Positions 38,730 to 57,425 are shown, counted from the stretch's first letter. The stretch: 64,000 nt of DNA from an uncultured Spirochaetota bacterium (GCA_963827275.1 CAWHAA010000005.1:1-64000), one strand, 5' to 3'. The notes: generated by a model not told the origin, from the letters alone. Program-made: numbers and translations.

Positions 38730-38957
38730 ATGATAAAAAGAATGGTGCAACATGGAAATAGCTCTGCTCTGATAATTGATAAACCCATAATGGAGCTATT
38801 AAATATTGGCCCTGAAACGCCGCTGGAGATCGCTACCGATGGCCAAAATATTATAATTTCACCGGTGCATGACTCCACAAGAATGGACCGGCTGGAAAAG
38901 GCATTGGGAAAGATCAATAAAAAACATAACTCTACCTTAAGAAAATTGGCCAAATGA
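38730..38957 (+). CDS. AbrB/MazE-type antitoxin
   Basis: K.MVQHGNSSALIIDKP..ELL.I....LEI...G..III.P. Confidence 0.85.
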   Translation: MIKRMVQHGNSSALIIDKPIMELLNIGPETPLEIATDGQNIIISPVHDSTRMDRLEKALGKINKKHNSTLRKLAK

Positions 38958-39349
38958 CACAAAGACCAATTGAATTTATAACCCTGGCAGAAGTTATTGA
39001 AATACATAAAGATCAAACAAGACTCTATGGCGGCCCCGAAGGCATCAGGGATGTTAATCTGCTAACTTCAGCGTTAGCCCTGCCCAAATCTACATTCGAT
39101 GGGGAATACCTGCATAAAAATATATTTGAAATGGCGGCAGCATATGCCTGTCACCTGTGCCAGAACCATCCGTTCATTGACGGGAATAAGCGGGTGGCCC
39201 TGGTGACTGCCCTGGTGTTTTTAGAATTTAATGGCATTGAAATCGATGATCCAAAGGGGCTCTTATATAATGCCATGATGAATATTTCGGAAGGTAAAGC
39301 CGGGAAAAAACAAATAGAAGATATCTTCCGCAAATTGTCAAACAACTGA
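38954..39349 (+). CDS. doc: Doc/Fic-family toxin
   Basis: HPFIDGNKR Fic/Doc motif; ATGA overlap with antitoxin. Confidence 0.9.
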   Translation: MTQRPIEFITLAEVIEIHKDQTRLYGGPEGIRDVNLLTSALALPKSTFDGEYLHKNIFEMAAAYACHLCQNHPFIDGNKRVALVTALVFLEFNGIEIDDPKGLLYNAMMNISEGKAGKKQIEDIFRKLSNN

Positions 39350-39541: not shown

Positions 39542-40744
39542 TCACAACGGGCTCCGGATGCCCTTAAGCTGCGGATCATAGACCTTTGTATATATCGAAG
39601 TCGTGGTTATGTTCTTATGGCCGAGCAGCGCCTGTATGTGCCGAAGCGATATGCCGTTCTCGAGCAGGTGCGTGGCAAATGTATGCCGGAGGTCATGCGG
39701 CGACGCCTTTTTATTGATGCCGGCCTCCCTGAGCGCCCTCTCCAGCACCTTCTGCACTGTCCTTCCGGAAAGGGCATGGTGCCTTCCCTGCCTGTCCGTG
39801 CCGGACGAAAGGAATATGAACTCGTCACCACGCTTCCCATCCATAAACCGTCTCAGGTCATCGACAATCTTATCGGAAAAAATGGTGATGCGGTCTTTTT
39901 TCCCCTTCCCCTCCTTCACGTGAATCGACAGGCGCTCACAATCGACGTCCCGCACCCTCAGGCTGAGCAACTCGGAGAGCCTGAGCCCGGACGAGTAAAT
40001 AAGCGCGATCATTGTCCGGTGCTTCAGGTTTTTTATGCTGTCCAATATTCTCGCAATCTCGCCCCGGGTAAACACCACCGGAAGGTGCTTCGAATTCCGC
40101 ACTCCTTCAACAAACGAGAGGTCGATTGTCATGTTCAACATGTTATTAAAATAATACGCGAGCGCGAACCTGTACACTCGTACCGTCGATGCGGATGCTT
40201 CCCTGTCATTATTCAGATAAAGAAAAAACGCGCGGAAATCTGCATGATCCATATCGTCAATGTGTTTATTTTTTTTTGCCATGCTCCAGGCATGGATCAT
40301 TCGCACCGCGCTTAAATAAATTTTTATGGTTTTCCGCGAATATCGTTTCAACTTGAGCGTTTCTTCAAACTCTGTATACTGCCGCGGCAGTGACATCGGT
40401 TGCGCCACACTATTCCCGGACGCAGACACAACGGCCTTATCATTATCCTCATTTGGAAACCATGTTTCGATCTCTTTAAAAGCATTACGATATACACCGA
40501 GCGTTTTTTGAAAATAATCGCGCACCAGCAGAAAATCCCCGTAGCTAATTCTACTCCTGTTTCTTTCAAAAAACTCCATAATATTTTGGTTAGATATAAA
40601 CATTGCCTTTTTCCATGAATATTTCTCCAGCAACATCCCCAATATTCCATTTTCCATTCGCATCACCCCCCACATGTTTTCAACTACCATATCAGACCAT
40701 GATAATAAACGAATGGGAGGTTCGTTTAATAAAACATTATTCAA
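39542..40744 (-). CDS. intI: integron integrase (tyrosine recombinase), start uncertain, N-terminal extension
   Basis: LPVVFT, YSSGLRLSE, KGKKDR, insertion ending GRHH, HDLRHTFATHLLE.G, LLGH, IYT; divergent from attC array. Confidence 0.9.
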   Translation of the reverse strand: MNNVLLNEPPIRLLSWSDMVVENMWGVMRMENGILGMLLEKYSWKKAMFISNQNIMEFFERNRSRISYGDFLLVRDYFQKTLGVYRNAFKEIETWFPNEDNDKAVVSASGNSVAQPMSLPRQYTEFEETLKLKRYSRKTIKIYLSAVRMIHAWSMAKKNKHIDDMDHADFRAFFLYLNNDREASASTVRVYRFALAYYFNNMLNMTIDLSFVEGVRNSKHLPVVFTRGEIARILDSIKNLKHRTMIALIYSSGLRLSELLSLRVRDVDCERLSIHVKEGKGKKDRITIFSDKIVDDLRRFMDGKRGDEFIFLSSGTDRQGRHHALSGRTVQKVLERALREAGINKKASPHDLRHTFATHLLENGISLRHIQALLGHKNITTTSIYTKVYDPQLKGIRSPL

Positions 40745-40765
40745 TAAATTATGAATTTTTTCTTA

Positions 40766-40794
40766 TTGACTTTCGGCTCGCCTAACAGTAGCCT
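40766..40794 (+). promoter_or_regulatory. candidate Pc cassette promoter
   Basis: TTGACT-17-TAGCCT just upstream of first cassette. Confidence 0.55.
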
Positions 40795-40799
40795 TAAAA

Positions 40800-40833
40800 A
40801 ATCATTAAGAAATTCGGACAATTTTAGTTAAAC
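40800..40833 (+). other. attI: attI site (core GTTAAAC at 40827-40833)
   Basis: First GTTRRRY not preceded by an attC arm, between intI and cassette 1. Confidence 0.75.
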
Positions 40834-41300
40834 GCCATTTCGAGCGGCGGCCGCGGTTTTTTTGTTATAAATAAAAGAAAAAAATAGGGTTGGCTTTTCT
40901 TTCGATCATATAATAATTAAGGCAATAATCTTTTCGTTCGGTTGCAGCTTAACATTACGCGGCCGCCTCTGGGCTCGCAGGTCTCTCAGTATCGTTTTAT
41001 TGGGTCTTTCTGTTGATTCATAGATATGGGATAACCGACTGACGATATTGGTATGCAACTACTGTCGGTTGCAATACATCGCATAAAGCTTTAACTGGCA
41101 GGTCCTGCGATCCCAGTCGAAACGGCGCTTAACAAAGCATGGGGCGCTGCGCGCGGCCACGAAAATTTAGACGCTGTGGCCGCGCTTGGCCTCGCGCCTT
41201 TCCGCCAGCGGCGGTACTGATTGGCGGATGTTCTAACGCACCGCCACTGGCGGGGCGCTCGGCACACCGCCCTGCGGGCGGCGTCGCCCATGCTTGGACG
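40828..41300 (+). ncRNA. gene-less structured cassette, allele A (cassette 1)
   Basis: No conserved ORF; nested inverted repeats; six copies; RNA status inferred. Confidence 0.5.
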
Positions 41301-41306
41301 TTAAAC
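41127..41306 (+). repeat. attC: attC1 (180 bp)
   Basis: GCTTAAC-aaagcatggg...cccatgcttggac-GTTAAAC. Confidence 0.88.
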
Positions 41307-41772
41307 GCCATTTCGAGCGGCGGCCGCGGTTTTTTTGTTATGAATAAAAGAAAAAAGAGGGTTGGCTTTTCTTTCGATCATATAATAATTAAGGCAATAG
41401 TCTTTTCGTTCGGTTGTAGCTTAACATTACGCGGCCGCCTCTGGGCTCGCAGGTCTCTCAGTATCGTTTTATTGGGTCTTTCTGTTGATTCATAGATATG
41501 GGATAACCGACTGACAATATTGGTGTGCAACTATTGTCGGTTGCACTACATCGCATAAAGCCTTAACAGACAGGTCCTGCGATCCCAGTCGAAACGGCGT
41601 TTAACAAAGCATGGGGCGCTGCGCGCGGCCACGAAAATTTAGACGCTGTGGCCGCGCTTGGCCTCGCGCCTTTCCGCCAGCGGCGGTGCTGATTGGCGGA
41701 TGTTCTAACGCACCGCCACTGGCGGGGCGCTCGGCACACCGCCCTTCGGGCGGCGTCGGCCATGCTTGGACG
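41301..41772 (+). ncRNA. gene-less structured cassette, allele B (cassette 2)
   Basis: Near-identical to 40828-41300 with allele-specific SNPs. Confidence 0.5.
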
Positions 41773-41778
41773 TTAAGC
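41599..41778 (+). repeat. attC: attC2 (180 bp)
   Basis: GTTTAAC...GTTAAGC, same family as attC1. Confidence 0.88.
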
Positions 41779-41891
41779 GCAATACAGCGCTGGCTTTGGG
41801 TTGGCTTTATGGTTGGTCCGGCCTCCTGCCGGCCTTTAATTATGAATTTCATTTTTAAAATATTCTTTTTCATTATTATAGGTTTTTATAT

Positions 41892-42605
41892 ATGAAAAGA
41901 TTAATTACTATTCTATCAATAACTTTCACTTTAATTTATTGTGAAAAATCTTATTCTAATTATTATCTGGGTCCTTATATATCTGTAGCTGTAGGTCAAA
42001 TGGCTCATACACAATCTTCAATTCGAGAAGTTTATGATAATTATATTTTTGGCGGAGGTGGAATCTTCCAAACATCGATTTATCGACGAGGTTTATATAA
42101 TTATAGATTAAATTTTTGTTTCGAAAAGATTTATATACCACATACGACCAAACTTGGAACTGATTTTAGAAATACAATTCGAGGAAATTTAATTAATACA
42201 ATTGCTTATTCAATTTATAAAAAAAGGAATTATAATTTATGGATCGGGCCGCAAATCGGTCTTCATATTTTATGGGGCGACAATTATCTAAGTGATAATA
42301 AATATAATAAATTGAATACGATCCTCATTTCATCAATAATAATGAATCCTGAACTACCACTAATCATTTTACTATATTCTTCGAATAATTATGTGAAATT
42401 TACTGATTTTATTTTTAGTTTTGCTCCGGAAATTGGCATTGATATAAATGCAACAGACTTTTTAATTATATCATTGGAAAGTGGATTGAGAGTAGGTATT
42501 CATTTGCCAACAAATAAAATATCTAGCTCTGTTACATTGTATAGATTTGAAGGATTTTTTAATCTTTCATTTTTATTTAGAATTAACAAAGAAGAAAATA
42601 CATAA
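41892..42605 (+). CDS. cassette 3 hypothetical secreted/outer-membrane protein
   Basis: AT-rich 237-aa ORF, signal-peptide-like start, beta-strand-like C-terminus. Confidence 0.7.
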   Translation: MKRLITILSITFTLIYCEKSYSNYYLGPYISVAVGQMAHTQSSIREVYDNYIFGGGGIFQTSIYRRGLYNYRLNFCFEKIYIPHTTKLGTDFRNTIRGNLINTIAYSIYKKRNYNLWIGPQIGLHILWGDNYLSDNKYNKLNTILISSIIMNPELPLIILLYSSNNYVKFTDFIFSFAPEIGIDINATDFLIISLESGLRVGIHLPTNKISSSVTLYRFEGFFNLSFLFRINKEENT

Positions 42606-42663
42606 TTTTATTATGCCGCCGCCGTCCTGACGGCGGCAACTTGAACTGGGAGCGCTGTACTGC

Positions 42664-42843
42664 GCTTAACAAAGCATGGGACGCTGCGCGCGGCCACGAA
42701 AATTTAGACGCTGTGGCCGCGCTTGGCCTCGCGCCTTTCCGCCAGCGGCGGTGCCGATTGGCGGATGTTCTAACGCACCGCCACTGGCGGGGCGCTCGGC
42801 ACACCGCCCTTCGGGCGGCGTCGCCCATGCTTGAACGTTAAAC
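42664..42843 (+). repeat. attC: attC3 (180 bp)
   Basis: GCTTAAC...GTTAAAC. Confidence 0.88.
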
Positions 42844-43309
42844 GCCATTTCGAGCGGCGGCCGCGGTTTTTTTGTTATAAATAAAAGAAAAAAGAGGGTT
42901 GGCTTTTCTTTCGATCATATAATAATTAAGGCAATAGTCTTTTCGTTCGGTTGCAGCTTAACATTACGCGGCCGCCTCTGGGCTCGCAGGTCTCTCAGTA
43001 TCGTTTTATTGGGTCTTTCTGTTGATTCATAGATATGGGATAACCGACTGACGATATTGGTATGCAACTACTGTCGGTTGCAATACATCGCATAAAGCTT
43101 TAACTGGCAGGTCCTGCGATCCCAGTCGAAACGGCGCTTAACAAAGCATGGGGCGCTGCGCGCGGCCACGAAAATTTAGACGCTGTGGCCGCGCTTGGCC
43201 TCGCGCCTTTCCGCCAGCGGCGGTACTGATTGGCGGATGTTCTAACGCACCGCCACTGGCGGGGCGCTCGGCACACCGCCCTTCGGGCGGCGTCGCCCAT
43301 GCTTGGACG
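42838..43309 (+). ncRNA. gene-less structured cassette, allele A (cassette 4), includes attC4 43136-43315
   Basis: Repeat of cassette 1. Confidence 0.5.
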
Positions 43310-43781
43310 TTAAACGCCATTTCGAGCGGCGGCCGCGGTTTTTTTGTTATGAATAAAAGAAAAAAGAGGGTTGGCTTTTCTTTCGATCATATAATAATTA
43401 AGGCAATAGTCTTTTCGTTCGGTTGTAGCTTAACATTACGCGGCCGCCTCTGGGCTCGCAGGTCTCTCAGTATCGTTTTATTAAGTCTTTCTGTTGATTC
43501 ATAGATATGGGATAACCGACTGACAATATTGGTGTGCAACTATTGTCGGTTGCACTACATCGCATAAAGCCTTAACAGACAGGTCCTGCGATCCCAGTCG
43601 AAACGGCGTTTAACAAAGCATGGGGCGCTGCGCGCGGCCACGAATATTTAGACGCTGTGGCCGCGCTTGGCCTCGCGCCTTTCCGCCAGTGGCGGTACTG
43701 ATTGGCGGATGTTCTAACGCACCGCCACTGGCGGGGCGCTCGGCACACCGCCCTTCGGGCGGCGTCGCCCATGCTTGGACG
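43310..43781 (+). ncRNA. gene-less structured cassette, allele B (cassette 5), includes attC5 43608-43787
   Basis: Repeat of cassette 2. Confidence 0.5.
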
Positions 43782-44491
43782 TTAAGCGCAATACAGCGGC
43801 TTTATTTTTTTGCTTTATTCTGGGGCCGGCCTCCTGCCGGACTATTCTTAAAGAAAATGCTTTTTTATTAATGTCCTGGAAGTCTATATCCACCTTTTCC
43901 ACTCAATTCTTGTAAGAGTGTAGAGATATTTTTTTATTATTAAAGAAATACTAAATAAAATATTCTGAAAAATAGCTCAATCTGTTCTCTTTTAGCTAAG
44001 ACGCAAGAGTAGTCTTTTTGATTTATTTTTTTATGTTTTTCTTGACCAGTATTCTCATGTGCATATATATAATTCTGTATTAAAATACTTTTTAAATATT
44101 AATACAAAAGAAAATGTTTGGACATTTGTTCGCCGTGAATTTATTGTACTGAAACGTAAGAGCATACTTTTTTAATTTATTATTTTCTTGGCTTATTCTT
44201 AACCGTAATAGTTATCTATTTTTTACATACTTCAGTATAAATATTATTTTTTTGCTGTAAGTGTATTTGCCGCCGCCGTCCTGACGGCGGCAACTTGAAC
44301 TGATAGCGCTGTACTGCGCTTAACAAAGCATGGGGCGCTGCGCGCGGCCACGAAAATTTAGACGCTGTGGCCGCGCTTGGCCTCGCGCCTTTCCGCCAGT
44401 GGCGGTGCCGATTGGCGGATGTTCTATCGCACCGCCGCTGGCGGGGCGCTCGGCACACCGCCCTTCGGGCGGCGTCGCCCATGCTTGGACG
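43782..44491 (+). other. second type of gene-less AT-rich cassette (cassette 6), attC6 44318-44497
   Basis: No credible ORF inside; ends shared with cassette 3. Confidence 0.7.
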
Positions 44492-44524
44492 TTAGGCGCA
44501 ATTTGGTTGATATTTAATAATATT

Positions 44525-45034
44525 ATGACAAATTTATTATCCTTAAAAGAAATAGAAAGCGAAGTAAATAATCTTGCAAGATTGATAAATGCACCAAAAG
44601 ATTATTTGCCAACATTTGGCTATACAAATGATTTTGCACAACCTCATATTGAGATAAATTATAATCAGTATCACTATGTAATTGTCGAGCGTGGCCAAGA
44701 ATTTGAAAGAAAATCAACGGAAAATATTCATGAACTTTTATATTGGATATTTGAATCAATAACATTTAATATGGCTATTGATTATGAATTTAAAAATAGA
44801 ATTGAAGATCTTGATTCTAGACGTATTGCTTTTAAAAAACAAGAAGAATTATTAAATCTACTTAATCCAGATTGGAAGAATACATTAGAAAATAAACATA
44901 AATTAATATTAGAAAAACATCCTTTTGATGACTTATCTGGTTTAAGGGCAACATATTGTAGGGAGTTGAGAGAAAAAGGATATTGTGAAGATGATATAAC
45001 TAAAAAGGCTTATGAAAAATATCCTTTGCCTTGA
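44525..45034 (+). CDS. Imm63-like polymorphic-toxin immunity protein (cassette 7)
   Basis: P..YLPTFG...PHIEI..YHYV..ERGQE..R..T....ELLYWIF..IT..MA..YE...R....D.RR..F..Q.ELL. Confidence 0.75.
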   Translation: MTNLLSLKEIESEVNNLARLINAPKDYLPTFGYTNDFAQPHIEINYNQYHYVIVERGQEFERKSTENIHELLYWIFESITFNMAIDYEFKNRIEDLDSRRIAFKKQEELLNLLNPDWKNTLENKHKLILEKHPFDDLSGLRATYCRELREKGYCEDDITKKAYEKYPLP

Positions 45035-45046
45035 CAACCAAACTGC

Positions 45047-45220
45047 GCATAACAAAGCATAGCCGCTCCGCTCCTCGCTCGCTAAGGCTCGCTGCGGTGC
45101 TCGGCCTCGCGCTTATCCCGCCAGCTGCGGCGGTGATTTGGGGAGGGTTTTGAGCCGCCTTGCTGGCGGGGCGCTCGGCAACCTGGCTTCGCCAGGTTCG
45201 GCTATGCTGAGACGTTAGGC
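45047..45220 (+). repeat. attC: attC7 (174 bp)
   Basis: GCATAAC-aaagcatagccg...cggctatgctgagac-GTTAGGC. Confidence 0.88.
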
Positions 45221-45298
45221 GCCATTTCTGGCTGGCTTTTTTATTTCCTCGCCATCCATGGCTCGGAATTATTATCATATTTTATCAGGAGGACATTT

Positions 45299-45883
45299 AT
45301 GGGTCTAATTGTTCATTCATTAGAAAACATACCTCAATCTTCAAATAGGGATTATATAATATATTTACTCGATTATGGCTGGAGTGAACCAATTGGAAAA
45401 GCTCTTAATGATAATTTTGATCATATGGCTAATATTGCAGCAAATAATCGAGCTGTAATTATTAAGGGAACTAGATTAGGTGATTTTGCAAACGAAGTTT
45501 TTTCTTGGCATCATATAAATAATATTGATGCCGATGACATTCTTCCTGCATTATTAATTACCAATAAACATCCCGTATATTTTAAAGATTATGAGTTTGG
45601 ATATCGCCAAAAAAAGGGATTATATAGAGACACCAAAGATGATGATTTAAAATTAATTCTAATACCTTTTAAAAAGTTTTGTAAAACAACAACTGAGGTA
45701 ATTTCTTTAATCGAAAAAGTATTTTCTGATATAATTAACAAAAAGGATTTATCAAATTTTTCTGTAGCAAAAGAAATGAAAAAAGGAATATGTTCTGCAA
45801 TTGTAGACGCTATAATACTTGAGCCTAATTTTTCCGGAATTGGTTTTAGTTTTAATAAATTCAGGAGTTATTTAAAAACTTAA
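45299..45883 (+). CDS. hypothetical protein (cassette 8)
   Basis: 194-aa ORF with strong AGGAGG RBS filling the cassette. Confidence 0.8.
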   Translation: MGLIVHSLENIPQSSNRDYIIYLLDYGWSEPIGKALNDNFDHMANIAANNRAVIIKGTRLGDFANEVFSWHHINNIDADDILPALLITNKHPVYFKDYEFGYRQKKGLYRDTKDDDLKLILIPFKKFCKTTTEVISLIEKVFSDIINKKDLSNFSVAKEMKKGICSAIVDAIILEPNFSGIGFSFNKFRSYLKT

Positions 45884-45958
45884 AATTAACTTATTTGTAA
45901 TTACTCAAAAGTACATCCATGTACTTTTGAACTTTTTCGTTTTAATGCCAGAAACGGC

Positions 45959-46206
45959 GCCTAACAAAGCATAACCGCTCCGCTCCTCGCCCACTTCGCG
46001 GGCTGCGGTGCTCGGCCTCGCGCCTGGCCGCCTCCGTCGGTGCCGATTTGGGGATGATCTAAAGCACCGACTCCGGCGGCGCGCTCGGCTCATTTTTCGG
46101 CGCTTCTTAGTTTCAAATAAATTAGTACTTGCAAAATTGCTTACAACAGGATAGATAACTTTTCGCGGCCAGGCCTCAAAACGACGGTTATGCTTGGACG
46201 TTAAGC
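45959..46206 (+). repeat. attC: attC8 (248 bp, with AT-rich internal insert)
   Basis: GCCTAAC-aaagcataaccg...cggttatgcttggac-GTTAAGC. Confidence 0.8.
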
Positions 46207-46374
46207 GACATTGCCATTTTTTTATGTATTTGGAGTTATGAATGATTCCATCAGAAAGACACCCAATTGTTTCATTCTTCCTTGATGCTTATTTCATTGA
46301 AACATTTTTAAATCTTATAAAAAAATTATATCTGCCGAACGAGTATTTTAATATATCTATAAGAATAATATTTA

Positions 46375-46863
46375 ATGATAATATTCATATTTTACCATGC
46401 TTACTATTATAAAAAAACAAAATTCCGCACTATTGGCGAACTTATTACTGGAACCTATATAGATAGTGATGGTAATAAATATTTTCTTAATCCATTTTAT
46501 TTAAATCGTTTTATTTTATGGGTTCCAATGTTTCTCACCTTTGTTGGTTTAAAATCTGTAAATATAATTCAAATAAATGACTTAAAATTAATTTCATCAT
46601 TAATATTTATTGGCATTTTATTATTAACATATTTTTCATACATCATGTTAAATAGAGGATATGTTATCGGTTTAATTTTATTATTAATAATTTATGCTTC
46701 TTTAATTTTTAATGTAATATACAATAAAGGATTTATTATAAAATTATTTGATTGGGAATTAATAATAGAATTCACATTATTATTGTTATTTATAACAATA
46801 ATAATAGCATATTGGATTATAAGAATGAATAAATTTCAAAATATAAATGGCAACGTCGCTTAA
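46375..46863 (+). CDS. multi-pass membrane hypothetical protein (cassette 9); 5' end uncertain
   Basis: Hydrophobic ORF whose stop lies in the attC R'' box. Confidence 0.65.
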   Translation: MIIFIFYHAYYYKKTKFRTIGELITGTYIDSDGNKYFLNPFYLNRFILWVPMFLTFVGLKSVNIIQINDLKLISSLIFIGILLLTYFSYIMLNRGYVIGLILLLIIYASLIFNVIYNKGFIIKLFDWELIIEFTLLLLFITIIIAYWIIRMNKFQNINGNVA

Positions 46864-47029
46864 CACGGCGTTCACGCTCCGCTCCTCGGGGCTTCGCCCC
46901 TGCGGTGCTCGGCTTCGCGCCTCGCCCGCCGGTTTCGGCGGTTTTCGGAGGAGTGTTCTGAGCCGTTTCACCGGCGGGGGCGCTCAGCAACCTGGCTTCG
47001 CCAGGTTCGTAAACGCCGGAACGTTAAAC
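46858..47029 (+). repeat. attC: attC9 (172 bp)
   Basis: GCTTAAC-acggcgttcacg...cgtaaacgccggaac-GTTAAAC. Confidence 0.85.
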
Positions 47030-47495
47030 GCCATTTCGAGCGGCGGCCGCGGTTTTTTTGTTATAAATAAAAGAAAAAAGAGGGTTGGCTTTTCTTTCGA
47101 TCATATAATAATTAAGGCAATAGTCTTTTCGTTCGGTTGCAGCTTAACATTACGCGGCCGCCTCTGGGCTCGCAGGTCTCTCAGTATCGTTTTTTTGGGT
47201 CTTTCTGTTGATTCATAGATATGGGATAACCGACTGACGATATTGGTATGCAACTACTGTCGGTTGCAATACATCGCATAAAGCTTTAACTGGCAGGTCC
47301 TGCGATCCCAGTCGAAACGGCGCTTAACAAAGCATGGGGCGCTGCGCGCGGCCACGAAAATTTAGACGCTGTGGCCGCGCTTGGCCTCGCGCCTTTCCGC
47401 CAGCGGCGGTACTGATTGGCGGATGTTCTAACGCACCGCCACTGGCGGGGCGCTCGGCACACCGCCCTGCGGGCGGCGTCGCCCATGCTTGGACG
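47024..47495 (+). ncRNA. gene-less structured cassette, allele A (cassette 10), includes attC10 47322-47501
   Basis: Repeat of cassette 1. Confidence 0.5.
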
Positions 47496-47547
47496 TTAGG
47501 CGAAAAAACGCCAAAATATAAGTCGAGGTAAAAAGGAAATTTATATT

Positions 47548-49989
47548 ATGGAAATTTATGCTATACTATTAAAATTATTTGATTTTCTTAATAAAATGTC
47601 TAATATTTCCTTTACAACATTTATCGCATTCATAGGAGCTATTACTGGTTCATTAACTTTTTATTATACTTTTTTAAAAAGATTTAATCCAAAATGTATA
47701 ATTAGTGGTGATATTATTTTTCATTGCAACAAAGGTTCTTTAAAAAATAATGATGCCTATTTAAAAGAAATAGAGTTAAATATTACATTCAGCAATGAAT
47801 CTAATAAGTATGGGTTGATTGAAGACCTACTAGTTCGTATATATTCAACGGATGGGATCACAAGAGAAACTGATCCTACCCCACAATTCGACCAGTTTCA
47901 AGTTTAGTTTTCTCGATCACTAACATATCATTATATTGTTTTGGCGTCATCCCTTTTAATCTCTTTTGAGGTCTTTCCTCGTTATATTCTCTCCACCATT
48001 CATGAATAATCTCTCTGGCTGTACTCAGTTTTTTAAAATAATGAGCACTGAGACATTCATTCCGAAATGTTCCATTAAAACTTTCTATGTGGCAATTATC
48101 TGATGGCTTGCCGGGCCTTGTGAAAATTATTTTAATCCCCTTTTCATAGCACCAACGGTCGAGTTCCTGGCTTCTAAATTCAGGACCATTGTCACATTGT
48201 ATAAATTCTGGATACCCAAAGGATTCACATGCTCTTTCAAGTAGTTCAGAAACATCCTTACCCGTTATTGAAAATCCAGTATGAATAAGTGGCGAATGAT
48301 TCGTTACAGGGTCAATCGCTGTCAGTATTTTGAGATTCTTTTTAAAGCCCACCGAGTCATGAATGAAATCTAAAGCCCATATGACGCCAGGTTCATTCGG
48401 CAATTCAACGGGTGATCGTTCTAATGAAGCTATCTTTTTCCGACGTTTCCGCGCTCGTAATTGCAGCCCATGCTCTTTATATATCCTTTCTGTACGCTTA
48501 TGATTAATCAGTATCCCTTTTTGCCTCAGCTTGAGCTGTATCATTCCGCAGCCATATTTTGAATTTTTTGAAAGGATCGAATCTATCTCTCCAATGATTC
48601 GTGCGTCATCATTTGGCTGCGGACTATATAAAAATGTAGAACGAGCCATGCAAGAAACCTTGCATGATCGTCGTATCGAAAACCCGAAGCTACTCATCAG
48701 ATAGCTTACTGCCTCTCTCTTCACTCCGGGTCGCAGAACTTTTTTATGATCTCCTTCTGTGCCATGTTATCCAGGGATAAATCGGCAACCAGTTTCTTTA
48801 ATCGTGTATTTTCATCTTCAAGTAGTCGCAATCGAACAATTTCCTGAGAGCTCATATCTCCATATTTGCGCTTCCAGATATAAAAGGAGTTCTCACTAAT
48901 GCCGTGTTCTCGGGCGATATCCTTTACCTTTTTTCCCGCCTTATGCTCACCAAGGATCCTGACAATCTGCTCTTCTGAGAATCGTTTTTTCATTTTAACC
49001 TCATTAGTCTTGATTATTTATCGGTTAAAACTAAACTATCTCGTGGTACAAATTTAAGGGGTGGGATCAAAACCACTCCTTATTTTATAAGTCTTTTCAA
49101 GGATCATGATAATCCTGATAAATTGCCATTTTACCCTATCGTATTAATCCCTAAAAGTTTTCGTTCATCTACATTTATCTTTATCGATCGAATTGCCGCA
49201 TCAGAAAAAATAATAAATATTGATCGTGATTATAATCTTCAATTATTCATTAAATATAAAAAAGAAAATAATTGGGTTTTAATTGATGATATAACTCTAT
49301 ATTGTAAATTAAAAGATAATACCAATCAATTATTTGATTTAATATTTATGTCTATAAATCAACAGATTATTCGCGATAAGGCTAAAGACTATATTGGGAA
49401 AATTCCAAAACCTTTTTACAGAGGAATAATACATCAATGGTTTAAAATTATATTTGAGGAAGTTAAGTTTTTCATTATAAGGACAATTTATAAATTGTTG
49501 CATTTCATACAATGTATTTACCATCTTATTCTCTCTGGAATTAATTGGCTTGTATCTTTTATTGTAATAAATAACCTATTAATATTTTTATCTTCAAAGA
49601 CTAAGGAAATTAAAACAAGTAGCCAAATTGGTCCCGATGAGCAAACACTGGATTATATAAAAAAACTACACAAAGTAATTTTAAAATTAGTTACTAAAAT
49701 TAATAATAGATCAGAAAGCAAAATTGATATTCAATACAAAGGCAAAGATATTTTATTAAGTCGCAATAATTTTGAAATTATTATTTATGCACCTGGCGTT
49801 AACCATATAATGGCACATGATAAAGAAAGTCATGAATATAAGCTTTTTCTTGAATTTGCGATGGTTGTAAATAGGATTAATCATAAATATTGGACATATG
49901 ATGATAAATTTATATCGATTACGAGAATAGCATTAAAAATTATTGATAGTTTTAGCTTAATGACTCAATATAAAATAATTCCTGAATAA
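47548..49989 (+). pseudogene. 412-aa hypothetical cassette-11 gene split by an IS3-family element
   Basis: Removing IS 47871-49069 and one AAAC fuses 47548-47870 in frame with 49074-49989. Confidence 0.85.
47871..49069 (-). mobile_element. IS3-family (IS407-group-like) element, 1199 bp, 4-bp target duplication AAAC; orfA 48721-48993, orfB 47876-48724
   Basis: IRs TGATCC(T/C)ACCCC; orfA MKKRFSEEQI; orfB DDE (WALDF, CDNGPEF, ESFNG); A6G slippery site at 48739-48745. Confidence 0.95.
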
Positions 49990-50002
49990 TTGACGTTTCT
50001 TC

Positions 50003-50125
50003 GCCTAACAAAGCATAACCGCTGCGCGCGGCCACAAGAAATGAAGCTGTGGCCGTGCTCGGCCTGCGGCACACCGCGCCAAGGGAGGAAGCTGGCGCGG
50101 CGTCGGTTATGCTTGGACGTTAAGC
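50003..50125 (+). repeat. attC: attC11 (123 bp)
   Basis: GCCTAAC...GTTAAGC. Confidence 0.87.
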
Positions 50126-50189
50126 GCCATGGAAAAAGAGCTTTTTGCCCGCCATCCGTGGCGGGCTTTTTAAGAAATATATTTTTTTC

Positions 50190-50218
50190 TTGACATGTAG
50201 TCATTATATGACTACTTT
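50190..50218 (+). promoter_or_regulatory. TA cassette promoter with palindromic operator
   Basis: TTGACA-17-TACTTT; GTAGTCAT-tat-ATGACTAC. Confidence 0.8.
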
Positions 50219-50223
50219 GATTT

Positions 50224-50487
50224 ATGTTCTCAGTTAAAATATCAAAAAAGGCTATTAAGGGCATTCATAAAATGCCCATTAAAATTCAAGAAAGAATGAA
50301 TGTCCTTCTTAAAGATCTACGTGCAAAAGGACCCATGCGATATGAATGGCCAAATTTTAGTAAATTAGATGAAAATCTGTATCATTGTCATTTAGCTCAC
50401 AAATGGATCGCATGCTGGAAATATGAAAAACATACAATCATTATAGAGGTTTATTATGCAGGCTCACGTGAAAACGCCCCATATTAA
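50224..50487 (+). CDS. RelE/ParE-superfamily toxin (toxin-first TA, cassette 12)
   Basis: 87 aa, V.ISKKA.K.I.KMP..., YHCHL, EVYYAGSRENAPY; upstream of HTH gene. Confidence 0.7.
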   Translation: MFSVKISKKAIKGIHKMPIKIQERMNVLLKDLRAKGPMRYEWPNFSKLDENLYHCHLAHKWIACWKYEKHTIIIEVYYAGSRENAPY

Positions 50488-50824
50488 AATTAATATTAAA
50501 GGTGAAATTCATCCCAAAGTTCTTTCTGTTTTAAAAGAAGTCTATGGGAAAAAAGTTAAACTTATCAAGGAAAATGATGAAGAATTAGTTGATGCCTTTG
50601 AAACTGAATGGTTTAAAAATATTGATGCCACCATGTCTCCCGGCAAAAACATGAGGATATATCGAGAAATTCATAAAATGACCCAAGAAGAACTAGGTAA
50701 CAAATTAGGTGGCATTTCTAAACAAAATATTTCTCATATGGAACGAGGTATTAGACCTATTAGTAAAAAAACTGCTAAATCATTGGCTTCAATTTTTAAA
50801 GTTCCGGCAGACCGTTTTATTTGA
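50456..50824 (+). CDS. XRE-family HTH antitoxin (HigA-like)
   Basis: PG.NMRIYRE...MTQEELG.KLG.ISKQNISHMERG.RPIS. Confidence 0.85.
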   Translation: MQAHVKTPHIKINIKGEIHPKVLSVLKEVYGKKVKLIKENDEELVDAFETEWFKNIDATMSPGKNMRIYREIHKMTQEELGNKLGGISKQNISHMERGIRPISKKTAKSLASIFKVPADRFI

Positions 50825-50900
50825 CTATTTTTAAGATATTGCCCTGCCCTCGCCCGTCCTGGACTCGGGCAGTAAATACTTATACTATTTTTTCCACGGC

Positions 50901-51079
50901 GCTTAACACGGCGTTCACGCTCCGCTCCTCGGCGGCTTATTGGCGCCTGCGGTGCTCGGCTTCGCGCCTTGCCCGCCGGTTTCGGCGGTTTTCAGAGGAG
51001 TGTTTTGAGCCGCCTCACCGGCGGGCGCGCTCAGCAACCTGGCCTGCGGCCAGGTTCGTAAACGCCGGAGACGTTAAAC
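50901..51079 (+). repeat. attC: attC12 (179 bp, attC9 family)
   Basis: GCTTAAC...GTTAAAC. Confidence 0.85.
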
Positions 51080-52482
51080 GCCATTTCGAGCGGCGGCCGC
51101 GGTTTTTTTGTTATGAATAAAAGAAAATAAATAAGGTTGGCTTTTCTTTCGATCATATAATAATTAAGGTGTAATAGACTCGATTTAATCTGACACTCTT
51201 CCGATAAATGGAGCAGAAAATGCTCTGAATAATTATACGGAGGAGTACATGACAACAGAACAGAAAGTCATCAGGAACAAAATGGGGTTATTAAACCTCG
51301 CAGAGCAGATTGGGAATGTCAAAAAAGCATGTCACATTATGGGATATTCCCGAGACAGTTACTACCGGCTAAAGGAACTTTATGATACTGGTGGTGAAGA
51401 AGCGTTAAAAGAAATCAGCAGAAAAAAAGCTAATATAAAGAATCGTGTTGATCCAAGTGTTGAAACTGCAGTTAACAGCATTGCAATTGAGTATCCCGCA
51501 TTTGGACAGGTTCGGGCTTCTAATGAACTGAGAAAACAGGGGATATTTGTCTCACCTACCGGAGTAAGAAGCATATGGCTCCGTAATGATCTTGAAACCA
51601 TGAAGAAGCGGCTCAAGGCACTTGAGGCCAAGGTCGCTCAAGATGGAATCATTCTCACGGAATCACAGCTTGCCGCATTAGAGAAAGCCAAAGAGGAAAA
51701 GGAAGCTCATGGTGAGATTGTATCTGAACATCCTGGTTATCTGGGTTCGCAGGACACAATGTATGTAGGAACGGTCAAAGGTGTTGGCCGGATATACCAG
51801 CAGACTTTTATAGACACGTATTGTAAGGTGGCTTTTGCAAAGTTATACAATATGAAAACACCAATTACCTCTGCCGACATATTGAACGACAGGGTTATAC
51901 CGTTTTATGAAAACAGCAGCATTAAGCTGATCCGAGTATTGACGGATCGTGGTACCGAATATTGCGGGAAAATGGAAAGTCATGACTATGAACTGTTTCT
52001 TTCGATTGAGGATATTGAGCACACAAAGACAAAGACGCGGCATCCTCAAACAAATGGAATATGCGAAAGATTTCATCGAACCATTCAAGATGAATTTTAT
52101 CGCATAGCATTTAGAAAGAAAATTTACAACACTCTTGATGAACTTCAGAAGGATCTTGACATATGGATTGTTCAATATAATAATGAGAGACCGCATAGTG
52201 GAAAATATTGTTATGGCAAAACACCGATAGATACGTTCAAGGATTCGTTAGTGCTTGCAAAAGAAAAACTGCTAAACTTTAACTGACAGGCAGTTTGGAA
52301 GTGATTGGTGAGTGTCAGATGAAGTTCAGAGTTTTACAATTAAGGCAATAATCTTTTCGTTCGGTTGCAGCTTAACATTACGCGGCCGCCTCTGGGCTCG
52401 CAGGTCTCTCAGTATCGTTTTATTGGGTCTTTCTGTTGATTCATAGATATGGGATAACCGACTGACGATATTGGTATGCAAC
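51074..52482 (+). ncRNA. sixth copy of gene-less cassette, interrupted by IS481 and truncated by IS3
   Basis: 51074-51169 and 52339-52482 match the cassette. Confidence 0.5.
51170..52338 (+). mobile_element. IS481-family element, 1169 bp, 7-bp target duplication ATTAAGG; transposase 51249-52286
   Basis: TGT...ACA ends with ATCTGACACT inner IR; HPGYLGSQDT, LTDRGTEYCG, TNGICERFH. Confidence 0.93.
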
Positions 52483-53681
52483 TGATCCTACCCCACAATT
52501 CGACCAGTTTCAAGTTTAGTTTTCTCGATCACTAACATATCATTATATTGTTTTGGCGTCATCCCTTTTAATCTCTTTTGAGGTCTTTCCTCGTTATATT
52601 CTCTCCACCATTCATGAATAATCTCTCTGGCTGTACTCAGTTTTTTAAAATAATGAGCACTGAGACATTCATTCCGAAATGTTCCATTAAAACTTTCTAT
52701 GTGGCAATTATCTGATGGCTTGCCGGGCCTTGTGAAAATTATTTTAATCCCCTTTTCATAGCACCAACGGTCGAGTTCCTGGCTTCTAAATTCAGGACCA
52801 TTGTCACATTGTATAAATTCTGGATACCCAAAGGATTCACATGCTCTTTCAAGTAGTTCAGAAACATCCTTACCCGTTATTGAAAATCCAGTATGAATAA
52901 GTGGCGAATGATTCGTTACAGGGTCAATCGCTGTCAGTATTTTGAGATTCTTTTTAAAGCCCACCGAGTCATGAATGAAATCTAAAGCCCATATGACGCC
53001 AGGTTCATTCGGCAATTCAACGGGTGATCGTTCTAATGAAGCTATCTTTTTCCGACGTTTCCGCGCTCGTAATTGCAGCCCATGCTCTTTATATATCCTT
53101 TCTGTACGCTTATGATTAATCAGTATCCCTTTTTGCCTCAGCTTGAGCTGTATCATTCCGCAGCCATATTTTGAATTTTTTGAAAGGATCGAATCTATCT
53201 CTCCAATGATTCGTGCGTCATCATTTGGCTGCGGACTATATAAAAATGTAGAACGAGCCATGCAAGAAACCTTGCATGATCGTCGTATCGAAAACCCGAA
53301 GCTACTCATCAGATAGCTTACTGCCTCTCTCTTCACTCCGGGTCGCAGAACTTTTTTATGATCTCCTTCTGTGCCATGTTATCCAGGGATAAATCGGCAA
53401 CCAGTTTCTTTAATCGTGTATTTTCATCTTCAAGTAGTCGCAATCGAACAATTTCCTGAGAGCTCATATCTCCATATTTGCGCTTCCAGATATAAAAGGA
53501 GTTCTCACTAATGCCGTGTTCTCGGGCGATATCCTTTACCTTTTTTCCCGCCTTATGCTCACCAAGGATCCTGACAATCTGCTCTTCTGAGAATCGTTTT
53601 TTCATTTTAACCTCATTAGTCTTGATTATTTATCGGTTAAAACTAAACTATCTCGTGGTACAAATTTAAGGGGTGGGATCA
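52483..53681 (-). mobile_element. second copy of the IS3-family element (orfA 53333-53605, orfB 52488-53336); flanks do not match
   Basis: Same proteins and IRs as 47871-49069; left flank CAAC, right flank AAAC. Confidence 0.95.
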
Positions 53682-53689
53682 AAACCCAT

Positions 53690-54142
53690 ATGAAAATACT
53701 TATAAAACTCCTGCCATTTATATTAGGTGGTGCCTTAGTTATTCAATCTTCACTAAATAAATCAATTGCCCAATCAAAAGGCTTAAGCACAGCATTAGTC
53801 ATAAATGGATTAATTGTTGTATTCTGTTCATTAATAATATTTATTTTATCATATTTTTTCCCACATCACTTCTCGGAAATTATTACTTATAACAACAATA
53901 ATTTGATATTTAAATGGTGGTATATAATTCCTGGTTTTTTAGGATTTTGTGCATTATTAATTCTTCCAATTGGAATTATGAAAATTGGTGCCTTACCAAT
54001 TTTTCTTGGAGTAATTGCTGGGCAAATAATCGTAAGTATTATATATGATTTTTATTTTGAAAATATTTCAATTAATTTAATTCGTGTATCAGGAGCCTTA
54101 TTAACTTTTATTGGAGCCTTTTTGGTAGTTTGGAAAAGATGA
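53690..54142 (+). CDS. DMT-superfamily (YdcZ-like) transporter (cassette 14)
   Basis: G...Q...N, WW..PG.LG, IG......GQ...S..YD pattern. Confidence 0.8.
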   Translation: MKILIKLLPFILGGALVIQSSLNKSIAQSKGLSTALVINGLIVVFCSLIIFILSYFFPHHFSEIITYNNNNLIFKWWYIIPGFLGFCALLILPIGIMKIGALPIFLGVIAGQIIVSIIYDFYFENISINLIRVSGALLTFIGAFLVVWKR

Positions 54143-54317
54143 ATAATTATTCAAATCACAAGTAATAACCAACAAATAACTAATAACTTGACAAAATATG
54201 TATTTATTATTATAGAATATATAAATTACATGCAAAATATTATTTTTTTTTACCTTAATGTTGCTTTTCGCCATCCATGGCTCAAAGCAAATATGCCTTA
54301 ATGTGTATGGCCACTTC

Positions 54318-54455
54318 ACCTAACAAAGCATAGCCGCTGCGCGCGGGAATACCGCGCTTGGCCTCCGCGCCAAGATATGAAGACGGCGCTACGGCACATT
54401 TTCACCTCCGCGAGTACGCTCCGGTGAAAACGTCGGCTATGCTTGGACGTTATAC
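54318..54455 (+). repeat. attC: attC13 (138 bp)
   Basis: ACCTAAC-aaagcatagccg...cggctatgcttggac-GTTATAC. Confidence 0.87.
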
Positions 54456-54515
54456 GCCATGGCAAACTTTTCGCCTGCCATCCATGGCGGGCGTGGTATT
54501 TCATAATAAAATATG

Positions 54516-54544
54516 TTGACAAGTAACCCTTATTTGGTTACATT
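54516..54544 (+). promoter_or_regulatory. second TA cassette promoter with a different palindromic operator
   Basis: TTGACA-17-TACATT; GTAACC-n7-GGTTAC. Confidence 0.8.
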
Positions 54545-54549
54545 GCATT

Positions 54550-55147: not shown

Positions 55148-55222
55148 TTTTTTATTACCTTTGGCCCGCCTCCGCACGTCCTGTGCTTCGGCGGTAGAGC
55201 TTTTTTACTTCATTGCCACGGC

Positions 55223-55528: not shown

Positions 55529-55599
55529 GCAATTGCCCCATTTTATATAGAATAGAAAAATATAGTATAAATATTACAAAAAAATTGTGCATATAAATT

Positions 55600-56474: not shown

Positions 56475-56515
56475 GAAACCCGGCGGTTTTGAAATTTGAG
56501 AGGAACTCTTTCATA

Positions 56516-57406: not shown

Positions 57407-57425
57407 GGAATTATCGCCGATATTC

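What the first reader, a model, noticed from the sequence alone, without database searches (positions are those of the whole stretch)
40828..52482. A gene-less, fully self-folding integron cassette present in six copies, including the first array position
Seen: a ~472-bp cassette recurs at 40828, 41301, 42838, 43310, 47024 and (IS-broken) 51074, as two alleles (A: 40828, 42838, 47024; B: 41301, 43310; the last copy is mixed). The 51-codon frame MNKRKKRVG... has a start only in allele B, and has early stops in the first and last copies, so it is not conserved as protein. The ~300-nt body is nested inverted repeats: outer stem 40827-40843/41117-41133; arm 1 GGCGGCCGCG 40846-55 / CGCGGCCGCC 40958-67 enclosing an AT-rich stretch with TATAAT (40909); arm 2 CTGGGCTCGCAGG 40969-81 / CCTGCGATCCCAG 41104-16 enclosing two hairpins. 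One of these (TGCAAC/GTTGCA) has two linked A-to-B changes that add a G-C pair. Known: gene-less promoter-bearing cassettes exist in Vibrio and other integrons. Inference: the copy number, first position and structure suggest a selected function, either a mobile ~150-200-nt structured ncRNA (decoy, sponge, antitoxin, or a retron-msr/msd-like RNA with an RT elsewhere), an internal promoter module re-driving the array, or a selfish cassette built for efficient IntI recombination.
Basis: partly seen in the sequence, partly recalled or inferred. Interest (0 to 1): 0.88.

Follow-up and report, generated by a model that had tools for sequence, protein, structure and literature searches.

The report
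Multicopy gene-less, self-folding integron cassette
A 472-base mobile integron cassette that carries no gene but folds tightly on itself is present in about six copies in this bacterium; it is a new example of the already known "gene-less" cassettes, and what it does is still unproven.

Summary
A chromosomal integron (intI 39542-40744, array to about 58.5 kb) carries five intact copies and one IS-broken copy of a 472/473-bp cassette, always joined exactly at G|TTAAAC.

No reading frame is conserved. There is no Rfam match, and no homologue in about 460 related genomes or two large contig collections. Contigs from two independent DNA studies hold the same cassette as a third allele.

All 12 complete cassettes checked here, and 56 of 59 candidates in six arrays of the genus, have the same terminal inverted repeat.

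What is specific is a 271-nt payload folded as two GC-stemmed arms. Only 1 of 21 variable sites lies in the stems (P=0.015). Substitutions do not show which strand folds, or whether the fold acts as RNA or DNA.

My best reading is a cargo-less cassette multiplied by IntI, with its compact single-strand fold helping excision. Its AT-rich core also carries a sigma-70-like promoter facing downstream, so "promoter cassette" is the main rival. The retron reading is not supported and the small-RNA reading has little support.

It is a new member of a known kind (paralogous non-coding cassettes). Interest is moderate to low.

The parts
39542..40744 (-). Integron integrase gene intI (400-aa ORF, with an N-terminal extension of about 110 aa)
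   Evidence: Pfam Phage_integrase 2.9e-43 and Phage_int_SAM_4 2.2e-15. Matches at E<=1e-100 (50-75% identity) in 14 of 16 same-genus genomes.
40780..40827 (+). attI region ending at the first crossover G|TT (G at 40827)
   Evidence: The sequence ...GGACAATTTTAG|TTAAAC resembles ...AGACAATTTTAG|TTGTAC next to the closest IntI orthologue (L044).
40828..41300 (+). Copy 1 (allele A-like, 473 bp, first array position)
41301..41772 (+). Copy 2 (allele B)
42838..43309 (+). Copy 3 (allele A)
43310..43781 (+). Copy 4 (allele B)
47024..47495 (+). Copy 5 (allele A)
51074..51169 (+). Copy 6, 5' fragment, broken by an IS481-like insertion
   Evidence: IS at 51170-52338 (345-aa rve/HTH_29 protein), ATTAAGG duplicated on both sides.
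52339..52483 (+). Copy 6, middle fragment, cut off by the IS3-family element that starts at 52484
   Evidence: This IS copy has ACT on its left but no matching duplication on its right, so the rest of the cassette was lost in a rearrangement.
40827..40843 (.). 5' half of the terminal inverted repeat (R' box plus extension). It pairs with 41117-41133.
   Evidence: Generic to all cassettes: 12 of 12 here and 56 of 59 in six arrays carry the same position-11 mismatch.
41117..41133 (.). 3' half of the terminal inverted repeat (extension plus R'' box GCGCTTAAC)
40846..40967 (.). Arm 1: the 10-bp stem GGCGGCCGCG/CGCGGCCGCC encloses an AT-rich 102-nt stretch
   Evidence: No variable site lies in the stem.
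40890..40917 (+). Sigma-70-like promoter match TTGGCT-16-AATAAT, facing downstream. It becomes TATAAT in the third allele.
   Evidence: consensus match only; 40912 A>T.
40969..41116 (.). Arm 2: the 13-bp stem CTGGGCTCGCAGG/CCTGCGATCCCAG (one mismatch) encloses 122 nt, including the TGCAAC/GTTGCA hairpin at 41053-41074
41125..41306 (+). attC of copy 1 (about 182 nt, R'' 41125-41133, R' GTTAAAC 41300-41306). The same attC type (97-100% over 88 nt) follows 7 cassettes.
   Evidence: (family D4)

Best explanation
**What it is.** This is a cargo-less ('gene-less') integron cassette: an attC site plus a 271-nt non-coding payload. The integron integrase excises it and re-inserts it like any other cassette.

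**How I think it works.** It has reached about six copies mainly because it is a good recombination substrate.
- The cassette is short.
- As single-stranded DNA the payload collapses into a three-way junction: terminal stem, arm 1 and arm 2.
- The genus-wide terminal inverted repeat can then close easily. That would bring the crossover point of the upstream attC next to the cassette's own attC.
- This should favour excision as a circle. Re-insertion at attI after replication adds a copy.
- Slippage or unequal exchange between the near-identical 180-nt attC sites can add tandem copies.
- The AT-rich loop probably also starts some transcription towards the next cassette, as a side effect or secondary benefit.

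**Shown.** Cassette identity, copy number, exact junctions, the fold and the conservation of the stems.

**Inferred.** That the fold acts at the DNA level and raises mobility.
For: **Cassette identity.**
- G|TTAAAC junctions lie behind attI, behind itself (twice) and behind three other cassettes.
- A contig of run X5 shows a further upstream attC end not present in the window (loose end at 40827).
- The first array position is the normal landing site for an insertion at attI.

**Non-coding.**
- The 51-codon + frame has ATG in 2 of 5 intact copies and is broken in copy 1 and copy 6.
- The third allele seen in X1, X5 and X19 combines ATG with copy 1's extra base. That gives MNKRKK-stop (worked out by hand).
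- None of 599 and 592 pattern hits in genome contigs and metagenome contigs was confirmed.
- The 118-aa ORF has no relative among the clustered proteins searched.

**Fold.**
- z -6.3 to -10.6.
- The payload alone as bottom-strand DNA gives -0.147 kcal/mol per nt (z about -3.8). Six other cassettes give -0.074 to -0.112 (only 12 shuffles each).

**Constraint on the stems.** Only 1 of 21 variable sites lies in the 80 stem nucleotides out of 307 (binomial P=0.015).

**The terminal stem is a DNA-level feature.**
- 46 different extension sequences keep complementarity.
- The fixed mismatch is A.C on the top strand but T.G on the bottom, recombining strand, in 56 of 59 cassettes.
- Control: 11 of 600 random 18-mers have an inverted partner.

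**Orientation.** GC skew is negative in 38 of 41 20-kb bins of the contig, which puts the attC bottom strands on the lagging-strand template. In that orientation excision is higher and depends on cassette length for long attC sites (Loot 2017, PMC5371416, passages read).

**Recurrence.** A sister species has an unrelated 402-bp cassette with no evident ORF (by eye; not tested) as two tandem copies plus a partial copy at its attI (L047).
Against: - No excision or copy-gain rate was measured. 'Selfish' is partly a default reading.
- The stems are mostly Watson-Crick pairs, so they would serve an RNA equally well.
- The + strand RNA fold is 7-12 kcal/mol more stable than the - strand fold in all six alleles tested, although the z-scores do not favour it.
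- Loot 2017 found no consistent drop in excision below 1,500 bp, so the advantage of a short cassette may be small.
- When the terminal stem closes around the payload it competes with the R boxes of both flanking attC hairpins. It could therefore inhibit recombination rather than help it.
- Apparent copy number is similar (4 to 5.5 by contig depth, with the tool's caveat) in two other samples. That looks stable rather than runaway.
- An RNA-library contig covers 40901-41134.
Confidence: 0.4

Rival explanations
1. Promoter cassette. The AT-rich core of arm 1 holds a sense-strand promoter (TTGGCT-16-AATAAT/TATAAT, start near 40924). It re-drives transcription of the next cassettes, as shown for most gene-less cassettes of Vibrio superintegrons.
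For: - The promoter-like site is found in both copies scanned.
- The stretch 40886-40911 does not vary in any allele.
- The one change in the -10 hexamer (40912 A>T, third allele) makes a perfect TATAAT.
- An A-rich tract lies just upstream.
- The payload is 42% G+C in a 56% G+C genome.
- Precedent: most of 29 Vibrio gene-less cassettes have sense promoter activity (PMC11014356, abstract and discussion read). The same was reported for Treponema cassettes (PMC6557892, listing and abstract start only).
- A contig in an RNA library covers 40901-41134.
Against: - The match is consensus only. The region has 5 promoter-like sites against 3.3 +/- 1.8 in shuffles.
- A promoter does not need GC-rich long-range stems, which are the most conserved part.
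- Tandem pairs mean a promoter driving another promoter cassette, and copy 1 sits directly behind the integron's own promoter region.
- The RNA-library contig starts 23 nt upstream of the predicted start site. It amounts to a few reads and may be DNA.
Confidence: 0.3
2. Cassette-borne structured small RNA. A 200-300-nt transcript of the payload acts in trans, for example as a regulator, sponge or antitoxin.
For: - The fold is strong.
- The stems are conserved.
- Several allele changes are wobble-neutral on the + strand: 40919, 40988 and 41003 (A-U to G-U), 41044, 41090, and 41053/41074 adding a G-C pair.
- A 234-nt contig in a metatranscriptome library covers 40901-41134.
Against: - No Rfam family matches.
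- There is no intrinsic terminator after the payload.
- Pair-keeping does not differ between strands: 7 kept and 5 broken against 6 and 5.
- The inner folds predicted for alleles A and B differ.
- No complementarity beyond 13-19 nt chance matches exists elsewhere in the genome (best E 0.054).
- No homologue outside this species is available for testing covariation.
- The RNA evidence is one low-depth contig (2.3) that may be DNA.
Confidence: 0.15
3. Decayed remnant of a small protein-coding cassette or a type I toxin-like cassette. The candidates are the + frame MNKRKKRVGF... (51 aa) and the - strand TTG frame at 40906-41058 (50 aa).
For: - Both frames are open in several copies.
- The + peptide has a basic N-terminus and hydrophobic stretches.
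- In the - frame, 4 of the 8 changes to the third allele are synonymous (by hand).
Against: - The + frame is intact with ATG in 2 of 5 whole copies and is stopped after 6 codons in the allele found in three other studies.
- It runs through the GC stems, which explains its Arg/Gly/Ala stretch.
- The - frame has a TTG start and no ribosome-binding site, and its changes include L>P and L>S.
- No related protein or locus was found.
Confidence: 0.07
4. Assembly artefact: collapsed or falsely duplicated repeats.
For: Repeats this similar are hard to assemble. Most relatives' contigs end right after intI.
Against: - The copies differ by defined alleles and sit in six different, exact contexts.
- Two are interrupted by IS elements.
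- Contigs of two independent DNA studies hold the cassette at 4 to 5.5 times the word depth of intI (with the tool's caveat on depth).
Confidence: 0.03

Closest known systems
Paralogous non-coding cassettes of Vibrio chromosomal integrons (Boucher et al. 2006, PMC1382264; passages read)
   Same: - No ORF and no protein match.
- Several copies in one array.
- Conserved over the whole length.
- Found only in the close lineage.
- The same two readings were offered there: selfish element, or a function useful to the integron.
   Different: - Different phylum, with a host of 56% G+C.
- No sequence similarity.
- The attC is about 180 nt with a branched fold.
- The payload is organised as two long-range GC-stemmed arms forming a three-way junction with the terminal stem. 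That paper does not describe such a fold in the passages I read.
Promoter cassettes: gene-less cassettes with promoter activity (Blanco et al. 2024, PMC11014356; Tansirichaiya et al. 2019, PMC6557892)
   Same: - Size class: 472 bp here against 491-666 bp there.
- No ORF above 210 bp within the cassette.
- AT-rich relative to the host.
- A sense-strand promoter-like site lies away from the 5' end.
   Different: - Promoter activity is untested here.
- The most conserved feature here is the GC-rich stem system, which a promoter role does not explain.
Gene-less self-folding mini-cassettes noted earlier in this scan (e1-2313974, e1-2929841, e1-2978890, e1-1113786; unchecked AI notes)
   Same: Multicopy, ORF-less cassettes inserted exactly at G|TT junctions. 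Some have a leader that folds back on the attC. They were read as selfish passengers of IntI.
   Different: - Other genomes and sequences; there was no sequence look-alike.
- Those are mostly little more than an attC (about 160 bp). This one carries a separate 271-nt folded payload.
Retron msr/msd RNA
   Same: Flanking inverted repeats and nested hairpins.
   Different: - No adjacent reverse transcriptase. The two RVT_1 hits are on contig C4 and about 250 kb away on C5.
- No Rfam retron hit.
- The element is bounded by attC crossovers.

Membership tests
Integron gene cassette | Bounded at both ends by the G|TTRRRY crossover of attC/attI sites | tested here: met
   All intact copies start with TTAAAC right after the G of the preceding attC or attI, and end with ...GGACG (or GAACG) before the next TTRRRY.
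Integron gene cassette | Own attC with inverse-core R'' (RYYYAAC) and core R' (GTTRRRY), complementary L boxes, and a folding bottom strand | tested here: met
   R'' is GCG(C/T)TTAAC and R' is GTTAAAC; AAGCATGG pairs with CCATGCTT. Bottom-strand DNA folds at -116.6 kcal/mol, z -10.6. The extrahelical bases of the L box were not examined in detail.
Integron gene cassette | Sits in an array next to an integron integrase gene and attI | tested here: met
   intI at 39542-40744 on the opposite strand. At least 13 consecutive cassettes were delimited.
Integron gene cassette | Mobility: the same cassette occurs in different contexts | tested here: met
   Six contexts in the window. A further upstream attC end appears in a contig of run X5.
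Gene-less / non-coding cassette (Boucher 2006; Blanco 2024) | No ORF above 150 bp (Boucher) or above 210 bp (Blanco), and no protein match | tested here: met
   Within the cassette the longest frames are 50-51 codons (153-156 bp). That is borderline for the 150-bp rule and met for the 210-bp rule. The 118-aa ORF at 41139-41495 runs from one cassette's attC into the next cassette. No protein relatives were found.
Gene-less / non-coding cassette (Boucher 2006; Blanco 2024) | No codon-like substitution pattern among homologues | tested here: inconclusive
   Only three alleles are available. The + frame is stopped in the third allele. In the - frame, 4 of 8 changes are synonymous (by hand).
Promoter cassette (Blanco 2024) | Measured promoter activity or a mapped transcription start | not testable with these tools
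   Only a consensus match, TTGGCT-16-AATAAT, and one low-depth contig in an RNA library.
Any Rfam RNA family | Covariance-model score at or above the gathering threshold | tested here: not met
   In the window only 3 tRNAs pass. In 40700-41900 at E<=10 there are 14 hits, all far below threshold; the best is 20.6 bits against 81.
Retron ncRNA | Adjacent retron-type reverse transcriptase | tested here: not met
   RVT_1 hits lie only at C4:457160-457789 and C5:295079-295687.
Type I toxin-antitoxin | Conserved small hydrophobic ORF | tested here: not met
   The frame is intact with ATG in 2 of 5 whole copies and is stopped after 6 codons in the allele seen in three other studies.

The most novel reading that the evidence does not exclude
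In this genus every cassette carries a cassette-specific 'clamp': a 10-13-bp extension of the R''/R' stem with a fixed wobble that pairs only on the bottom strand. The clamp can loop the payload out and place two consecutive attC crossover points side by side.

The 472-bp cassette would then be the extreme outcome, a payload evolved purely as a single-stranded DNA three-way junction that makes the clamp snap shut. That would make it a hyper-mobile parasite of the integron, or a tuning device for excision, rather than a carrier of any gene, promoter or RNA.
Probability: 0.2. Interest if true: 0.65.

Novelty: new member of a known kind. Interest (0 to 1): 0.33.

Why it matters
Gene-less cassettes make up 6-49% of Vibrio arrays (PMC1382264), and their role is only partly explained by promoter activity (PMC11014356).

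This example comes from a distant, uncultured-type lineage found in bioreactor, manure and wastewater metagenomes. Here the conserved part of such a cassette is its fold, not only its AT-rich core.

Together with the genus-wide terminal stem, this gives a concrete, testable idea: cassette ends and payload structure may control excision in integrons whose attC bottom strands lie on the lagging-strand template.

If it turns out to be only a promoter cassette, it merely extends a known category to another phylum.

Tried and rejected
- **Rfam.** Searches at gathering score and at E<=10 gave nothing.
- **tRNA/tmRNA.** None found.
- **BLAST of the payload against other genomes.**
  - 60 relatives: only 22-47-nt A/T-rich matches in 5 genomes, E 4.5e-4 to 9e-3.
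  - 400 genomes of the phylum: one 28-nt match.
- **Degenerate-pattern scans.** I used the open + frame of 41301-41492 against genome contigs and metagenome contigs. 0 of 599 and 0 of 592 candidates were confirmed. These scans may leave out the window's own genome.
- **Protein search.** The 118-aa ORF gave 24 candidates and none scored.
- **Earlier scan findings.** No look-alike by sequence.
- **Trans-target or source search in the own genome.** Only chance-level 13-19-nt matches.
- **Reverse transcriptase nearby.** None.
- **Strand assignment from allele substitutions.** No difference between strands.
- **IntI scan of genome contigs.** It returned only distant IntI (29-46% identity) in other phyla and missed the genus orthologues. 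The genome search later found those.
- **Hammerhead-like words.** By eye I considered CTGACGA and CGAAAC. The motif is recalled, the B and third alleles break it, and Rfam gives no ribozyme hit, so I dropped it.
- **The G008 tandem cassette.** It shares only the terminal repeat with this one, not the payload.
- **Read laying, parts without cover.** Run X19 (RNA library) has no contig on intI or on the attC, and X18 has only short unlike pieces.
- **Not done.**
  - No covariance model was built, because all copies are near-identical and no homologues exist to find.
  - The second metagenome-contig scan was not used.

Full report
**Setting**

The window holds a chromosomal integron. An integrase gene lies at 39542-40744 on the minus strand (Phage_integrase 2.9e-43, SAM-like domain 2.2e-15). 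A cassette array on the plus strand runs from the first crossover at 40827/40828 to about 58.5 kb.

The host DNA is about 56-60% G+C. The cassette interiors are 20-33% G+C, and the attC sites are G+C-rich.

The integron belongs to the lineage. 14 of 16 genomes of the same genus have an IntI match at E<=1e-100 (50-75% identity), including its N-terminal extension.

GC skew is negative in 38 of 41 20-kb bins of the 810-kb contig. The attC bottom strands therefore lie on the lagging-strand template. Loot et al. (PMC5371416, passages read) link this orientation to small arrays and frequent excision.

**The observation**

It is correct in nearly every detail.
- Five intact copies lie at 40828, 41301, 42838, 43310 and 47024. 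They are 472 bp long, except the first, which is 473 bp.
- One broken copy lies at 51074-51169 plus 52339-52483.
- The broken copy is split by an IS481-like element with a 7-bp target duplication. It is then cut off by an IS3-family element that lacks its duplication on the far side, so the rest was lost in a rearrangement.
- All 7 matches in the 4.13-Mb genome lie in this array.
- Alleles A and B, the start codon found only in B, the early stops in the first and last copies, the stem coordinates and the linked A>G / A>C change in the TGCAAC hairpin are all as described.
- Folding energies are far below those of dinucleotide shuffles: z -6.3 (RNA, + strand), -7.3 (RNA, - strand) and -10.6 (whole cassette as bottom-strand DNA).

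**Independent data**

The stretch has words in 20 listed runs from 12 studies of bioreactor, manure, wastewater, sediment and freshwater metagenomes. One of these may be the source sample.

I laid four runs.
- In two DNA runs from two studies the cassette body is one contig (40827-41158 and 40827-41174). Its word depth is 130.5 and 25.4, against 23.9 and 6.31 for the intI contigs. The tool warns that depth is not a copy number, so this is only consistent with several copies.
- Both contigs carry a third allele, with 17 differences from copy 1 and no gap.
- The third allele combines the ATG of allele B with the extra base of copy 1. The 51-codon frame therefore reads MNKRKK-stop (worked out by hand).
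- A 234-nt contig with the same allele (depth 2.3) is present in one metatranscriptome library and covers 40901-41134. This is a handful of reads, may be DNA, and shows neither strand nor ends.

**What the 'outer stem' really is**

For each of the 12 complete cassettes between 40827 and 51073, the first 17-20 bases after the crossover G are the reverse complement of the last 17-20 bases that end in the AAC of the cassette's own R'' box. There is always one mismatch, at position 11: A on the 5' side opposite C on the 3' side.

The same rule delimits 59 candidate cassettes in six arrays: the window plus five other species of the genus.
- 56 of the 59 have exactly this position-11 mismatch.
- Positions 12-18 take 46 different sequences while staying complementary.
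- As a control, only 11 of 600 random 18-mers have such a partner.

An A.C mismatch on the top strand is a T.G wobble on the bottom strand, which is the strand that integron integrases recombine. So the stem at 40827-40843/41117-41133 is a genus-wide feature of the attC system at the DNA level. It is not evidence that this cassette encodes an RNA.

**What is specific to this cassette**

The specific part is a 271-nt payload (40846-41116) made of two arms.
- Arm 1 is a 10-bp GC stem around 102 AT-rich bases.
- Arm 2 is a 13-bp stem around 122 bases.
- The arms join each other and the terminal stem by linkers of 0-2 bases, which makes a three-way junction.

As bottom-strand DNA the payload alone gives -0.147 kcal/mol per nt (z about -3.8). 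Six other cassettes of the array give -0.074 to -0.112. One other cassette without an ORF (43782-44491) also scores z -4.7 (12 shuffles each, rough).

Among the three alleles and the singleton changes, 21 sites vary in 307 nt. Only one of them lies in the 80 stem nucleotides (P=0.015). That one (41128) turns an A.C into an A-T pair.

The inner folds are not robust.
- Alleles A and B get different minimum-energy structures.
- On a consensus fold, 7 variable columns keep pairing and 5 break it on the + strand, against 6 and 5 on the - strand.

The data therefore support constraint on the long-range stems. They do not say which strand matters, or whether the fold acts as RNA or DNA.

**Coding, RNA families and relatives**

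- No frame is conserved.
- The minus-strand 50-codon TTG frame shows 4 synonymous and 4 non-synonymous changes to the third allele, including L>P and L>S (by hand).
- Rfam gives nothing, and ARAGORN gives nothing.
- No homologue appears in 60 relatives, in 400 genomes of the phylum, in two contig collections scanned with degenerate patterns or among clustered proteins.
- The payload has no extended complementarity elsewhere in the genome.
- The two reverse-transcriptase hits are far away.

**Mechanism**

The exact junctions in six contexts, plus one more in run X5, show repeated IntI-mediated placement. The first array position is the usual landing site.

I think the most likely account is a cargo-less cassette that has multiplied because it recombines well.
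- It is short.
- Its attC is long and branched. Loot 2017 found excision to depend on cassette length for the long Vibrio attC sites with low folding probability when the bottom strand is on the lagging-strand template. This attC's folding probability was not measured.
- Its payload folds away, so the terminal stem can close and bring the neighbouring crossover points together.
- The near-identical 180-nt attC sites would also allow slippage or unequal exchange, which may explain the two A-B tandem pairs.

A sister species shows the same behaviour with an unrelated 402-bp cassette with no evident ORF (by eye; not tested): two tandem copies plus a partial copy at attI. This suggests the behaviour goes with short gene-less cassettes in general and not with one payload sequence. 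All of this mechanism is inference; no rate was measured.

**Main rival**

The main rival is the promoter cassette of Blanco et al. 2024.
- A TTGGCT-16-AATAAT match faces downstream and is invariant in all copies. It becomes TATAAT in the third allele.
- It is only a consensus match in AT-rich DNA.
- It does not explain the stems.

The two readings do not exclude each other.

**Comparison and verdict**

Paralogous, conserved, lineage-restricted non-coding cassettes were described in Vibrio in 2006 (PMC1382264, passages read), with the same two hypotheses. Promoter activity was shown in 2019 and 2024 (PMC6557892, listing only; PMC11014356, abstract and discussion read). Earlier notes of this scan list similar families in other phyla (unchecked).

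This is therefore a new member of a known kind. It stands out for its fully folded payload and for sitting in an integron lineage with an extended, bottom-strand-biased terminal stem.

I did not search the literature specifically for that terminal stem, so I make no claim that it is undescribed.

Noticed in passing
window 40827-51073; L044, L046, L047, L048, L049: In this genus the cassette ends are inverse complements for 17-20 nt, that is 10-13 nt beyond the R''/R' core boxes. Position 11 carries a fixed mismatch (A.C on the top strand, T.G on the bottom strand) in 56 of 59 candidate cassettes, and the outer extension takes 46 different sequences. This looks like a lineage-specific extension of the attC stem that can form only in the excised circle or by looping out the payload.
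   Followed up: partly
window 39542-40744 (-): The IntI ORF is 400 aa, with about 110 residues ahead of the SAM-like domain. Genus orthologues align from residues 4-34 onward, so the extension seems real. Distant IntI in other phyla match only from about residue 115-130. Whether it relates to the extended attC stem is unknown.
   Followed up: no
window 41773-42837 and 43782-44491; L044 178-794; L047 reverse strand 325-971: Two cassettes share the same first ~60 nt and last ~60 nt: a 5' hairpin GGCCGGCCTCCTGCCGG, a 3' hairpin GCCGCCGCCGTCCTGACGGCGGC and the same attC. Their AT-rich interiors are unrelated; one has a 237-aa ORF and the other has no ORF. The same 5' hairpin opens the first cassette of the closest relative and a cassette in G008. 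This looks like a conserved GC-rich 'frame' with exchangeable AT-rich content.
   Followed up: no
window ~45240, 50150, 54270, 54470, 57560; L047 reverse strand ~1815: A hairpin motif GCCATCC(A/G)TGGC recurs near the 5' ends of otherwise unrelated cassettes. In some it is followed by a T-run, so it looks like a terminator.
   Followed up: no
L047 (G008), reverse strand 204-325, 972-1373, 1374-1775: Another species of the genus has an unrelated 402-bp cassette with no evident ORF (by eye; no ORF or protein search was run on it), present as two tandem copies plus a partial copy directly at attI. RNA fold z is -4.2, and it has no GC-rich arms.
   Followed up: partly
window 40000-58500 against the flanks: There is a strong composition contrast: cassette interiors are 20-33% G+C and intI about 42-45%, in a genome of 55-58% G+C, while the attC sites and cassette-end hairpins are G+C-rich.
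   Followed up: no
window 50224-50824 and 54550-55147: Two paralogous two-gene cassettes each encode an 87-aa protein and a protein of about 122 aa (HTH_3 in the one scanned at 50456-50824). Each sits behind its own TTGACA-type promoter-like sequence. They look like toxin-antitoxin cassettes.
   Followed up: no
window 47872-49074 and 52484-53686: Two identical IS3-family copies. The first interrupts a cassette ORF and has an ACT target duplication. The second lacks a matching duplication, so an IS-mediated deletion or rearrangement removed the rest of cassette copy 6 and whatever followed it.
   Followed up: partly
window 44330-45034; 38954-39349: One cassette encodes an Imm63 immunity-protein domain (1.3e-24). 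A Fic/DOC-family gene lies just outside intI.
   Followed up: no
G000 contig C5, whole length: GC skew is negative on the + strand in 38 of 41 20-kb bins, so the attC bottom strands lie on the lagging-strand template. Loot et al. 2017 associate this orientation with small, dynamic arrays.
   Followed up: partly
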